Notes under the pieces: generated by a model | Databases searched by the model: none | Seen by the model: only the letters and a program-made list of their open reading frames with translations | Told to the model about the DNA's origin: nothing | Position numbers and translations under genes: made by a program | From: Escherichia coli | Lineage (GTDB): Bacteria; Pseudomonadota; Gammaproteobacteria; Enterobacterales; Enterobacteriaceae | Strand: one strand, 5' to 3' | Assembly (NCBI RefSeq): GCF_044324875.1 | Contig: NZ_CP172185.1 | DNA: 64,000 nt | In this document: in pieces, positions 57,073-58,206 of the stretch | Layout: the number at the start of each line of letters is the position of its first letter | Position numbering within the stretch: the stretch's first letter is position 1

Positions 57073-57306
57073 TCAATGTTTATGAACCTGCTTCGGCAGG
57101 TTTTTTTATACTTGACAATGTACCTTTGGGATACATAATGTGCCCAAGAGAAACAACAAACAGGCAGGACGCCCACGAAGTAGCCGCCTGGAGCATATGA
57201 AGTCTAGGATGATTCGTTAGCAACAAAAAAGCGCCCTACAGGACGCTTAGCTCTTTAACAATCAGGTCCCCATCAACAAGTAACTGATAACTTGAGGAGG
57301 TGTGAA

Positions 57307-57513
57307 ATGCACAAAACAGAACCAAAAATCGTCGCGCCCGGATACACAAATGAGGAAATTTACGAGTGGATGGCAAAGAAGCTGGCAGCTATAAACCAGC
57401 TTCGTGAAGTGCTGTCTTATCGACAGGAAACAATAGACTCCTTAAAAAAACTGGATCAGGAAATCACGGTTTTATCACAGGATGTTACTTTAGATATTGT
57501 GCAGACAAATTAG
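57307..57513 (+). CDS. Small hypothetical protein downstream of cI
   Basis: 68 aa from ATG 57307 (MHKTEPKIVAPGYTNEEIYEW...) with strong SD gaggaggt 6 nt upstream; predicted coiled coil. Confidence 0.5.
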   Translation: MHKTEPKIVAPGYTNEEIYEWMAKKLAAINQLREVLSYRQETIDSLKKLDQEITVLSQDVTLDIVQTN

Positions 57514-57919
57514 GATCCCATTCATTTTCGTCAAAATCATCAAAGTGATGAATTTGTGATCTCCAGTCTCGATAATCTAAAAATTTCTGGGCGGTTACGC
57601 TTATTTTATCAAGCGTGAGTTCATCCTGAATTGAAAGAAGAAGTTCATCAAATTTCATCTCATTAATCTGTTTTGGCATCCAGTGATGCTTCATCAGAAT
57701 AAGGTGAACCAGAGCTTTTTTCCCATTCAACTGATTATAGGGAGTGCCGAATTTCTTCCGGTGCTCATGTAAGACAAGGTCCAGAAGAGTAAGTAATGTT
57801 GCCCTTGATTCAACTTTGCTTATTTCGACTGATGACACTACCCCACTGATTTCAATGCCCCGATACTTTCCAACATTTTCACAGTGGGATTTGTACAGCG
57901 TATAGATATTACCGGACAT
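57485..57919 (-). CDS. Hypothetical protein convergent with cI operon (rex-position cargo)
   Basis: 144 aa; SD aagga 7 nt upstream of ATG 57919; AT-rich; no recognisable family by eye. Confidence 0.55.
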   Translation of the reverse strand: MSGNIYTLYKSHCENVGKYRGIEISGVVSSVEISKVESRATLLTLLDLVLHEHRKKFGTPYNQLNGKKALVHLILMKHHWMPKQINEMKFDELLLSIQDELTLDKISVTAQKFLDYRDWRSQIHHFDDFDENEWDPNLSAQYLK

Positions 57920-57934
57920 TTCTTTTCCTTTTGC

Positions 57935-57986
57935 GTTGTTGGGGATAACCAGATTAACCGAATCCTTGTTGTTGGGGAATAACCAG
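57935..57986. repeat. Direct repeat pair gttgttgggg(a)ataaccag upstream of the 144-aa gene
   Basis: 18/19-nt copies at 57935..57952 and 57968..57986, just upstream of the 57919 start codon. Confidence 0.4.
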
Positions 57987-58206
57987 GTCCACCTCGCCTG
58001 ATGTGGCTAAAAGCAGGCACATAACAGCTAAGTATTTTCAACCAGAGAGAATCCTTAGCGTTGTGGTGAATGCGGCTCAGCGCACGCGGGTTAAGGTTGA
58101 GGCTGACAGTCGACCTTCTGTGGATACCCACCCGCCTGGTGTGCAACCTTCGCCAGGCACCGGGAGGCACCCGGCACCACAACTTTATGCTGCGTGTAGT
58201 CTTGGC

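What the first reader, a model, noticed from the sequence alone, without database searches (positions are those of the whole stretch)
57073..57990. Immunity-region cargo in the rex/sieB position: small cI-cotranscribed ORF plus convergent 144-aa gene preceded by direct repeats
Immediately downstream of cI is a 68-aa ORF with a near-consensus SD (gaggaggt), and a convergent AT-rich 144-aa gene (57485..57919) whose upstream region carries two 18/19-nt direct repeats (57935..57986). In lambda and P22 this position holds superinfection-exclusion and abortive-infection genes (rexAB, sieB) expressed in the lysogen.
Basis: partly seen in the sequence, partly recalled or inferred. Interest (0 to 1): 0.6.

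Follow-up and report, generated by a model that had tools for sequence, protein, structure and literature searches.

The report
Two-gene prophage cargo beside repressor
Next to the repressor gene of an SfIV/e14-like prophage lies a swappable cargo slot that here carries a conserved pair of head-to-head genes of unknown function. A relative of one of them is known to stay switched on in dormant prophages, which makes the pair a reasonable but untested candidate for a phage-versus-phage defence module.

Summary
All three observed features are real: the 68-aa ORF (57307..57513 +), the convergent 144-aa gene (57485..57919 -) and the two 18/19-nt direct repeats (57935..57986).

The reading "cI-cotranscribed, rex position" is wrong. 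cI ends at a strong terminator. It is followed by a near-consensus promoter carrying a copy of the cI operator (PL/OL). The 68-aa gene ("A", YdfC-like, PHROG 1744) is therefore the first gene of the repressed early-left operon.

The 144-aa gene ("B", NCBIfam "ECs1072 family", PHROG 5286) is an orphan all-alpha protein antisense to that operon.

A and B form a conserved module. In about 14 of 15 distinct lineages, B has a convergent A-like gene overlapping its 3' end. The module always sits just downstream of a lytic promoter: PL, PR, or the late promoter after Q.

Published RNA-seq shows the ST64B homologue of B (STMMW_20121) is transcribed from its own promoter in lysogens.

The repeats are not simple operators. 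Repeat 1 is the right-hand inverted end of the swappable cassette. Repeat 2 lies in the constant backbone.

At least six unrelated cargo types fill this slot in E. coli. None matches a known defence family.

Function is untested. A lysogen-expressed exclusion effector with A as its partner or antagonist is the best guess.

The parts
56398..57072 (+). cI-type repressor (LexA/S24-like, ymfK type). Given as context; it is not part of the cargo.
   Evidence: PHROG 4 transcriptional repressor, E 1.7e-49. Annotated as cI in SfIV and SfV.
57084..57110 (+). Intrinsic terminator that ends the cI transcript.
   Evidence: Stem of 8 pairs followed by a T7 tail. Annotated as a terminator in the SfV and Ayreon records.
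57112..57139 (+). PL-type early-left promoter (TTGACA-16-CATAAT) with an overlapping OL operator, ATGTACCTTTGGGATACAT, at 57118..57136.
   Evidence: Matches 11 of 12 consensus positions. The operator pattern has exact matches only here and at the OR operator 56313..56331. The same architecture is found in L103. Annotated as a promoter in Ayreon.
57219..57248 (-). Intrinsic terminator for '-' strand transcripts. It lies in the constant backbone, just outside the left edge of the cassette.
   Evidence: AAGCGTCCTGTAGGGCGCTT followed by TTTTTT. Conserved in alternative-cargo loci L004-L006 and L018-L021.
57260..57280 (.). Left inverted end of the cassette (AATCAGG-TCCCCATCAACAAG).
   Evidence: Inverted repeat I4, 13 of 14 positions complementary to 57965..57978. 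Homology to alternative-cargo loci stops at 57266. Duplex energies are given.
57307..57513 (+). Gene A: 68-aa YdfC-like small protein and first ORF of the PL transcript. Shine-Dalgarno sequence GAGGAGGT at 57294..57301.
   Evidence: PHROG 1744, E 4.8e-34. 39% identity to annotated YdfC proteins. A-like partners accompany nearly all B homologues.
57485..57919 (-). Gene B: 144-aa ECs1072-family protein. It is all-alpha and an orphan fold.
   Evidence: NF033230, 157.8 bits; PHROG 5286. AF2 pLDDT 94, pTM 0.88. No Pfam, PADLOC, PDB or BFVD relative. AFDB matches are all uncharacterised Enterobacterales proteins.
57934..57955 (.). Right inverted end of the cassette. It contains direct repeat 1 (57935..57952) and lies directly upstream of B's Shine-Dalgarno sequence.
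   Evidence: Homology to alternative-cargo loci resumes at 57935. The left and right ends are complementary to each other within each of six cassette types.
57968..57986 (.). Direct repeat 2, in the constant backbone shared by every cargo type.
   Evidence: Alignment A1. Flank sequences.
58042..58253 (+). STnc100/PasD-like structured leader RNA. It ends in a DicF-like terminator hairpin, and its 5' end carries the third, degenerate repeat copy (58049..58071). It marks the downstream border of the slot.
   Evidence: Rfam RF02076, 42.8 bits, below the gathering score of 47, E 7.8e-7. DicF 23 bits. Repeats D4 and D5.

Best explanation
SHOWN:
- The interval 57267..57934 is a swappable cargo cassette. 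It is inserted in the promoter-proximal leader of the early-left (PL) operon of an SfIV/e14-like prophage, between PL/OL and an STnc100-like terminator RNA.
- It carries a conserved convergent gene pair.
- Gene A (YdfC-like, 68 aa) is read from PL, so it should be silent while cI occupies OL and be among the first products made on induction or infection.
- Gene B (ECs1072 family, 144 aa, all-alpha) is read antisense to the lytic operon. Its transcript should run through the whole of A and stop at the '-' strand terminator at 57248..57229.
- A homologue of B in Salmonella prophage ST64B is transcribed from its own promoter in lysogens.

INFERRED:
- B is a lysogen-expressed accessory protein, most likely acting in phage-phage competition (superinfection exclusion or abortive infection).
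- A is its cognate partner and switches B off when the resident phage itself goes lytic. This could work by convergent transcription or antisense pairing across B, and possibly by direct binding.
- This logic parallels P22 sieB/esc/sas and BstA/aba self-immunity. Orphan YdfC-like genes in phages that lack B would then be anti-B genes.
- The two direct repeats belong to the boundary elements of the slot. Repeat 1 pairs with an inverted copy at the other cassette edge, as either a long-range RNA stem or a recombination end. Repeat 2 is a backbone copy.
For: Operon structure:
- Terminator, then PL/OL, then A. The order is repeated in lineage L103.
- YdfC homology and the dicBF precedent (PMC5069750).

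Pair conservation:
- 92 of 94 B loci have a convergent A-like ORF overlapping B's 3' end by 29-95 nt.
- So do 5 of 5 additional lineages.
- B identity among these lineages is about 25-40%.
- The N-terminal motif of A is conserved.
- A occurs without B (L010). B was never clearly seen without A.

Position:
- The module is always sense (A) and antisense (B) relative to a lytic operon, just downstream of PL, PR or the late promoter.

Lysogenic expression (PMC7067206):
- STMMW_20121 is the ST64B homologue of B. The coordinates match exactly.
- It has its own transcription start site and reads 61-269 TPM in 16 of 17 conditions.
- The neighbouring holin, sb49 and Q genes are mostly below 10 TPM.
- On peroxide or NO induction, B falls from 269 to 113 and 105 TPM, while A rises from 108 to 148 and 258 TPM.
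- ECs1072 gave a detectable, growth-phase-regulated signal in uninduced O157 Sakai (PMC2241611).

Exclusion-type slot:
- A SieB gene sits beside a B homologue in L107.
- At least five unrelated '-' strand cargo genes occupy the same slot.

Repeats:
- Junctions are at 57266 and 57935.
- Own left-by-right duplexes are -25 to -30 kcal/mol, z = -2.5 to -5.4, in six cassette types. L006 and L019 have arms specific to themselves.
Against: - No experiment or homology links A or B to phage exclusion.
- There is no PADLOC, Pfam or structural match.
- B has no membrane segments, unlike SieB and RexB.
- No sigma-70 consensus promoter for B was found in 57920..58400, so lysogenic expression in this phage rests on a homologue that is about 30% identical and sits in a different slot.
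- In ST64B, A is also transcribed in lysogens (23-258 TPM), probably from the constitutive late promoter. This does not fit a strictly lytic-only antagonist.
- The AF2 fusion of B-linker-A gave pTM 0.61, against 0.88 for B alone. No PAE was available, so docking is unproven.
- The 80 ST64B/Klebsiella-type loci are not independent of one another.
Confidence: 0.4

Rival explanations
1. Reverse polarity. A is a host-takeover or toxic early protein, like other products of dicBF/kil-type early operons. B is its lysogen-expressed antidote. B would neutralise leaky A, or A-like proteins from superinfecting relatives, in a toxin-antidote or 'guard' arrangement.
For: - A has a strongly conserved N-terminal motif even in phages without B, which suggests a target other than B.
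- A-type genes sit in early operons together with DicB and DicF (PMC5069750; L010).
- In ST64B, A and B are co-expressed at similar TPM in lysogens, as a toxin-antidote pair would be.
- B never occurs without A.
Against: - There is no evidence that YdfC-like proteins are toxic. The function of YdfC is unknown.
- In the PL slot, A is repressed, so an antidote would seldom be needed.
- The convergent overlapping layout is not that of type II toxin-antitoxin operons.
- Neither protein matches a toxin-antitoxin or defence profile.
Confidence: 0.2
2. B is a lysogenic-conversion or regulatory factor acting on host physiology or on the prophage's own lysis-lysogeny control, not on other phages. Its linkage to A would be purely cis: antisense or transcriptional interference that tightens silencing of the lytic promoter.
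For: - B's transcript should end only about 90 nt downstream of PL and cover all of A.
- The module always sits in the promoter-proximal leader of a lytic operon, upstream of the first terminator.
- B and A change in opposite directions on ST64B induction.
- Owen et al. propose an 'accessory or regulatory' role for STMMW_20121.
Against: - Both proteins are conserved as proteins across lineages that share only 25-40% identity, which a purely RNA-level role does not require.
- Neither protein has a detectable DNA-binding domain.
Confidence: 0.15
3. The two direct repeats are binding sites for a transcription factor that controls the promoter of the 144-aa gene.
For: - The repeats lie directly upstream of B's Shine-Dalgarno sequence, with start-to-start spacing of 33 bp, about three helical turns.
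- No consensus sigma-70 promoter is present, which would fit a dependence on an activator.
- Repeat 2 and the flanking backbone are conserved whatever the cargo.
Against: - Repeat 1 coincides with the mosaic junction.
- Repeat 1 is complementary to the opposite cassette edge.
- Cassettes L019 and L006 replace the repeat-1 sequence but keep that complementarity.
- A/B modules in other phages lack these repeats.
- A third copy lies inside the STnc100-like RNA.
Confidence: 0.15
4. One reading: a rexAB-like cI-A operon expressed from PRM in the lysogen, plus a separate sieB-like gene.
For: A follows cI on the same strand and has a strong Shine-Dalgarno sequence.
Against: - A strong terminator and an operator-bearing promoter lie between cI and A.
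- The same arrangement is seen in SfV and Ayreon annotations and in L103.
- A is YdfC-like, an early-operon gene.
- There are no RexA, RexB or SieB profile hits.
Confidence: 0.03

Closest known systems
STMMW_20121 / STMMW_20131 (sb50) of Salmonella prophage ST64B (Owen et al. 2020, PMC7067206)
   Same: Same two protein families, with the same convergent 3'-overlapping layout (71 nt there, 29 nt here). B is antisense to the lytic genes, is transcribed from its own promoter in lysogens, and was flagged as a candidate accessory (moron) gene.
   Different: It lies between the late promoter and tR' (the Q-holin region), not beside cI/PL. It is only about 32% identical over residues 52-143. A is also transcribed in lysogens there. 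No function is known, and the pairing with sb50 was not noted in that paper.
P22 / lambda sieB with esc and the sas antisense RNA (cited in PMC7067206; details from my own knowledge of Ranade and Poteete 1993)
   Same: A lysogen-expressed gene within the early-left region near the repressor. Self-exemption of the resident phage involves early transcription and antisense RNA. A true SieB gene neighbours a B homologue in L107.
   Different: There is no sequence or profile similarity (no PF14163 hit). B is soluble and all-alpha, with no predicted membrane segments. Here the partner is a separate convergent gene, not an in-frame internal product.
Lambda rexAB
   Same: Accessory genes adjacent to cI in a lambdoid immunity region.
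   Different: rexAB lies between cI and OL and is cotranscribed with cI. Here a terminator and PL/OL intervene, and there is no homology to RexA or RexB (PADLOC).
BstA/aba and Tha/Ith: prophage defence with cognate self-immunity (PMC8585504, PMC11087260)
   Same: The concept is the same: a lysogen-expressed effector next to the repressor locus, plus a phage-encoded element that spares the resident phage on induction.
   Different: There is no homology. The self-immunity role of A is only inferred.
YdfC of the Qin dicBF operon (PMC5069750)
   Same: A is 39% identical to annotated YdfC proteins. Both are promoter-proximal small ORFs of a repressor-controlled early operon that also contains a DicF-type RNA.
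   Different: Qin-type and PPompW-type loci have no convergent B gene. The function of YdfC is unknown.
Prophage hotspots of antiviral systems (P2/P4, Rousset et al. 2022, PMC9122126) and T4 'PeSL' mobile regulatory cassettes (Arbiol et al. 2010; from memory, not checked here)
   Same: A fixed slot with conserved flanks holds many unrelated cargo genes. Short repeated regulatory sequences lie at the cassette borders.
   Different: This slot is in e14/SfIV-like lambdoid prophages. None of its cargo types matches a known defence family. The cassettes carry cassette-specific inverted ends.

Membership tests
NCBIfam NF033230 'ECs1072 family phage-associated protein' / PHROG 5286 (gene B) | Full-length profile match above the curated cut-off. 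| tested here: met
   157.8 bits against a cut-off of 70, residues 4-144. PHROG 5286 E 1.5e-90 over residues 1-144.
YdfC family / PHROG 1744 (gene A) | Sequence similarity to YdfC-type small proteins. | tested here: met
   PHROG 1744 E 4.8e-34. 38-39% identity over 66 of 68 residues to annotated YdfC proteins, E 1e-8.
YdfC family / PHROG 1744 (gene A) | Promoter-proximal position in a repressor-controlled early operon. | tested here: met
   PL/OL lie 170 nt upstream of A. The PPompW locus has the order dicA-...-ydfC.
SieB (Pfam PF14163) | Profile match to the SieB domain. | tested here: not met
   No Pfam hit for B even at E <= 10, either alone or in 48 family members.
SieB (Pfam PF14163) | Location in the early-left region, expressed in the lysogen. 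| tested here: inconclusive
   The location is met, and L107 has SieB beside a B homologue. Lysogenic expression is shown only for the ST64B homologue.
RexAB | Lies between cI and OL and is cotranscribed with cI from PRM. | tested here: not met
   A terminator at 57084..57110 and PL/OL at 57112..57139 separate cI from A.
RexAB | Homology to RexA or RexB. | tested here: not met
   No PADLOC or Pfam hit.
Known anti-phage defence systems (PADLOC-DB v2) | Profile match of any component. | tested here: not met
   0 families for A and for B at E <= 1. The alternative cargo proteins gave nothing significant either: only two chance-level hits, at E 0.076 and 0.013.
Moron (autonomous accessory transcription unit in a prophage) | Own terminator, and composition different from the flanks. 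| tested here: met
   '-' strand terminator at 57248..57229. GC 0.38-0.40 against 0.42-0.55 in the flanks.
Moron (autonomous accessory transcription unit in a prophage) | Own promoter, active in the lysogen. | tested here: inconclusive
   No consensus promoter was found in the window. The ST64B homologue has its own transcription start site and high TPM in lysogens.
Type II toxin-antitoxin | Co-directional, autoregulated two-gene operon with a recognisable toxin or antitoxin fold. | tested here: not met
   The genes are convergent. No toxin-antitoxin profiles were found.
Type I toxin-antitoxin (3'-overlapping antisense pair) | Small hydrophobic toxin plus a non-coding antisense RNA. | tested here: not met
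   Both partners are conserved, soluble, helical proteins. Only the 3' overlap is shared with this family.
TIR-bounded mobile cassette (MITE-like) | Terminal inverted repeats at both ends. | tested here: met
   Found in six cassette types, z = -2.5 to -5.4 against shuffles.
TIR-bounded mobile cassette (MITE-like) | Target-site duplication, an empty site, or a cognate transposase. | tested here: not met
   No empty site was found in viral contigs. No duplication is evident at the junctions. No transposase lies nearby.
Rfam STnc100 (RF02076), flanking element | Score at or above the gathering threshold. | tested here: not met
   42.8 bits against 47, E 7.8e-7, full-length model match. It is best described as STnc100/PasD-like.

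The most novel reading that the evidence does not exclude
B is the effector of a previously undescribed prophage anti-phage system with an orphan fold. A is its cognate neutraliser, delivered as the very first product of a lytic promoter. The many 'orphan' YdfC-like genes at the head of early operons, including Qin ydfC, would then be anti-defence genes aimed at B-type systems. Separately, the slot itself would be a cassette-exchange site whose cassettes carry their own complementary ends. These ends would form either a long-range RNA stem that insulates antisense cargo from the PL transcript, or a recombination handle.
Probability: 0.2. Interest if true: 0.75.

Novelty: new variant of a known kind. 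Interest (0 to 1): 0.5.

Why it matters
Prophage slots next to the repressor have repeatedly yielded new defence systems, such as rex, sieB and BstA.

This work defines a widespread module that has not been characterised. The cassette is present in 405 of 5,426 complete E. coli genomes, and relatives occur across Enterobacterales. The module has a clear and unusual architecture: a convergent, overlapping pair placed between a lytic promoter and its first terminator. There is published evidence of lysogenic expression for one homologue.

If the pair is an effector plus self-immunity or anti-defence pair, it would give YdfC-like proteins a function and add a new fold to the defence repertoire.

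The slot also holds at least five other unknown cargo families, which makes it a ready list of candidates for plating assays.

If the module is not a defence system, the corrected map (PL/OL, cassette borders, STnc100-like leader) is still useful for annotating SfIV/SfV/e14-type prophages. In those records A, B or the RNA are currently missing or mis-called.

Tried and rejected
**Searches for a function of B, all empty**
- Pfam on B and on 48 family members.
- PADLOC.
- PDB sequence profile: only myoglobin, at E 0.33.
- Foldseek against AFDB50: only uncharacterised Enterobacterales proteins.
- Foldseek against BFVD: nothing below E 0.8.

**Other searches that failed or gave little**
- Family alignments A3 and A4 were too divergent for the search for related loci.
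- P0025 found nothing in viral contigs.
- The word-based search with A returned only close relatives.
- hhalign of the B family against four alternative cargo proteins showed no relationship, probability below 1%.

**A-B interaction**
- The AF2 fusion of B-(GGGGS)6-A gave pLDDT 88 but pTM 0.61. Without PAE or coordinates I cannot tell whether A docks on B, so I treat it as inconclusive.

**Promoter and cassette structure**
- No consensus promoter for B was found (and by eye).
- A search for an 'empty' hairpin site joining the two constant flanks gave 0 hits in viral contigs.
- The A/B modules of other phages do not carry the inverted ends, so the ends belong to this slot rather than to the module.
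- The alternative cassettes have no A-like '+' strand ORF.

**Literature and artefacts**
- 'ECs1072' appears once, in a microarray table.
- Papers on YdfC give no native function.
- I rejected the mir-5880 hit as an artefact of iteron-like repeats.
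Full report
**Setting**

The window from 54 to 61 kb is the immunity and early region of a lambdoid prophage. It is 98.7% identical to Shigella phage SfIV and closely related to SfV, Ayreon and the E. coli e14/CPS-53 group.

On the '-' strand lie the replication gene, a cII/YmfL-like gene and cro (56107..56307). On the '+' strand lie cI (56398..57072), the region in question, and then yfdP (58388..58750), yfdQ, yfdR and further early-left genes.

**Check of the observation**

All three features are present at the stated coordinates.

- The small ORF runs from ATG 57307 to 57513 (68 aa). 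GAGGAGGT lies 5 nt upstream.
- The 144-aa ORF is at 57485..57919 on the '-' strand. The two ORFs converge and overlap by 29 nt.
- Both are genuine conserved genes, not chance ORFs. A matches PHROG 1744 (E 4.8e-34). B matches PHROG 5286 (E 1.5e-90) and the NCBIfam 'ECs1072 family phage-associated protein' model (157.8 bits, cut-off 70).
- B is modestly AT-rich (GC about 0.38-0.40).
- The direct repeats at 57935..57952 and 57968..57986 differ by one inserted base. They are far beyond chance, with 0.04 matches expected per window.

**The 68-aa gene belongs to PL, not to cI**

- Twelve bases after the cI stop codon there is a strong intrinsic terminator (57084..57110).
- It is followed directly by TTGACA-16-CATAAT (57112..57139, 11 of 12 consensus positions).
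- The promoter spacer contains ATGTACCTTTGGGATACAT. The only other exact match to this pattern in 64 kb is ATGTACCTCCGGTATACAT, in the cro-cI operator region.
- This is therefore OL/PL, which is how the SfV and Ayreon records annotate the terminator and promoter.
- In an independent lineage, L103, whose B protein is 38% identical, the same order is found: cI, terminator, TTGACA-ATGTACCTATTGGATACAT-AAT, then A about 45 nt later.
- A is 38-39% identical to proteins annotated YdfC. ydfA, ydfB and ydfC are the promoter-proximal small genes of the DicA-repressed dicBF operon of prophage Qin, and their function is unknown (PMC5069750).
- Downstream of the cargo lies an STnc100/PasD-like structured RNA ending in a DicF-like terminator hairpin (58042..58253; 42.8 bits, gathering score 47). 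This completes the parallel with dicBF.
- A therefore sits in the 'first early-left gene' position, not the rex position. It should be silent in a lysogen.

**A and B form a conserved convergent module**

An exhaustive HMMER search found 65 representative B-family proteins. All are about 145-155 aa, and all named AFDB relatives are uncharacterised Enterobacterales proteins.

In 92 of 94 loci a convergent A-like ORF (HMM E < 1e-3) overlaps the 3' end of B by 29-95 nt. The same holds in all five additional lineages fetched afterwards.

Counted as distinct lineages, this is about 14 of 15. The exception (L014/L015) is a pair of contigs only 1.2-1.3 kb long.

The A proteins share an N-terminal motif, roughly (E/Q)P-x-I-x-A/N-P/G-G-x-x-x-x-E-E-L-x-x-W-L/M, followed by one long helix.

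A-type genes occur without B, for example in the PPompW and Qin-type loci. B was never clearly seen without A.

**Where the module sits**

In every locus A runs with the surrounding lytic genes, B runs against them, and the pair lies immediately downstream of a major lytic promoter.

| Position | Loci |
|---|---|
| Beside cI/PL | window, L009, L011, L012, L103, L107 |
| In the PR operon | L105 |
| Between Q and the late promoter on one side and the holin on the other | ST64B L007, Klebsiella phages L008, L016, L106 |
| Next to terminase | L104 |

In ST64B the module lies between a TTGAAA-16-TATGAT promoter and the late terminator that precedes the holin.

**Expression evidence from a homologue**

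In ST64B a 144-aa ORF at L007 3281..3715 is not annotated in GenBank. It converges on sb50 with a 71-nt overlap.

In S. Typhimurium D23580 the genes STMMW_20121 (2090066..2090500, 435 nt) and STMMW_20131 (2090430..2090789, 360 nt) have exactly these sizes, this spacing from the holin, and this overlap. They are therefore the B and A homologues.

Owen et al. [quoted passage not shown]

Their Table S5 gives these values:

| Gene | TPM |
|---|---|
| B (STMMW_20121) | 61-269 in 16 of 17 conditions |
| A (STMMW_20131) | 23-258 |
| cI | 65-520 |
| holin, sb49 and Q | mostly below 10 |

Relative to the InSPI2 baseline, peroxide and nitric-oxide shock (which induce ST64B) lower B from 269 to 113 and 105 TPM. 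They raise A from 108 to 148 and 258 TPM. This is a single data set, but it fits convergent interference.

In O157 Sakai, ECs1072 itself appears among genes that change at growth transitions in uninduced culture (PMC2241611).

**What B is**

I cannot say from similarity.

- The AF2 model is confident (pLDDT 94, pTM 0.88) and all-helical.
- The nearly invariant residues are R54, H72 and W134, with G66 and A69 also highly conserved.
- A fusion model of B-linker-A gave high pLDDT for A, including its extended N-terminal motif, but pTM was only 0.61. Without PAE this neither shows nor excludes docking.

**The slot and the repeats**

Comparison with other prophages shows that homology stops at 57266 and resumes at 57935. 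The interval 57267..57934 is thus one alternative among several.

E. coli genomes carry at least five other '-' strand single-gene cargos between the same flanks. These are 159-171 aa proteins of PHROG 1244, 6315, 7681 and 3983. SfV carries a '+' strand gene of PHROG 3195 in the same region, but with different junctions and without the repeats. None is related to B or to a PADLOC family.

The flanks occur in 1,888 of 5,426 complete E. coli genomes, and the A/B cassette itself in 405.

Direct repeat 1 begins exactly at the right junction. Repeat 2 is in the constant backbone. A third, degenerate copy forms the 5' end of the STnc100-like RNA, and an inverted copy (57267..57280) sits at the left junction.

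Every one of six cassette types has mutually complementary ends that extend a constant AATCTGG/CCAGATT base:

- Own left-by-right duplexes are -25 to -30 kcal/mol, with z = -2.5 to -5.4 against shuffles.
- The two cassettes whose ends differ in sequence (L006 GTAACCCTC/GAGGGTTAC; L019 CTGGATGACT/AGTCATCCAG) pair far better with themselves than with other cassettes' ends.

Complementarity, rather than sequence, is what is kept. This points to one of two explanations:

- a long-range stem in one or both transcripts, for which RNase III processing of the dicBF transcript is a precedent (PMC5069750); or
- cassette-borne recombination ends.

I could not decide between them. No empty site was found, and A/B modules in other phages lack these ends.

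The repeats are junction elements, but they are not shown to be inert.

**Most likely mechanism**

Shown:
- the operon map;
- the cassette borders;
- the conserved A/B linkage and orientation;
- lysogenic transcription of a B homologue.

Inferred:
- B is a lysogen-expressed accessory protein, most probably used in phage-phage competition. The slot is of the sieB type, and in L107 a true SieB gene is B's neighbour.
- A is the partner that neutralises B when PL or the late promoter fires. This would work through convergent transcription across B and perhaps by binding.
- The asymmetry (B always with A, A often alone) is what one expects if A is a self-immunity or anti-defence factor.

I give this whole model about 0.4.

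The main rival reverses the polarity: A is a harmful early protein and B its antidote (0.2). It draws support from the co-expression of A and B in ST64B lysogens.

**Verdict**

It is partly wrong: A is not cotranscribed with cI, this is not the rex position, and the repeats are junction elements.

This is an uncharacterised variant of a known kind, a prophage moron or hotspot cargo. It has an unusual and well-conserved two-gene architecture that is directly testable.

Noticed in passing
window 58042..58253 (+); L008 3028..3223: An STnc100/PasD-like structured RNA ends in a DicF-like terminator hairpin (58206..58242 plus a T run). It scores 42.8 bits, just under Rfam's gathering score of 47. 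A full-scoring STnc100 (108 bits) follows the A/B module in Klebsiella phage KPP5665-2. This RNA family therefore looks like the terminator-bearing leader of lytic operons, after both PL and the late promoter.
   Followed up: partly
window 57838..58182 (-) and 58070..58387 (+); L004 3375..3685: Likely mis-annotations lie over the structured RNA. SfIV_35 (114 aa), the N-terminal extension of SfIV_34 (yfdP), and PGAP's 'frameshifted hypothetical protein' in related E. coli genomes all overlap the STnc100-like element. Conversely, the SfIV record lacks gene A, and the ST64B GenBank record lacks the B homologue (L007 3281..3715).
   Followed up: partly
window 58251..58268 and 58322..58339: An 18-nt inverted repeat, 94% complementary with a 53-nt loop, lies between the STnc100-like RNA and the yfdP start codon. 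Its role is unknown.
   Followed up: no
window 54720..54900 (inside the replication gene 54220..55161): Iteron-like tandem repeats lie inside the replication-initiator gene and produced a spurious 'mir-5880' Rfam hit. They are probably the phage origin, as in lambda O.
   Followed up: no
window 58770..58824 (-): Two promoter-like sites on the '-' strand (TTGAGA-16-TATATT, 10 of 12; TTAAGA-17-AATAAT) lie in the yfdP-yfdQ spacer and point back towards yfdP and the cargo slot. This is a possible antisense promoter.
   Followed up: no
L004, L005, L006, L018, L019, L020, L021 (E. coli prophages), same slot as window 57267..57934: The slot is a hypervariable hotspot. It holds at least five unrelated '-' strand cargo genes (159-171 aa; PHROG 1244, 6315, 7681, 3983). 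All are of unknown function and none is in PADLOC. Each cassette has its own complementary inverted ends.
   Followed up: partly
L107 3327..3821; L106 2739..3497: A true SieB-domain gene (PF14163) sits beside a B homologue between cI and yfdP. In another phage a Tad2-like (anti-Thoeris-type) gene lies two genes from the module. Both fit a neighbourhood devoted to phage-phage conflict.
   Followed up: no
upstream of B homologues: window 57920..57960; L007 3225..3280; L102, L029, L016, L012: The 5' leaders of B genes from different lineages and slots share an A-rich (C/T)AACAAC motif 10-25 nt upstream of the start codon. In Q-slot phages the element is longer: TTGATA-N-GTTGATTCGCCAAAAG-AACAAC. 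It could be the unidentified B promoter or leader, or an Hfq/(ARN)n-type site.
   Followed up: no
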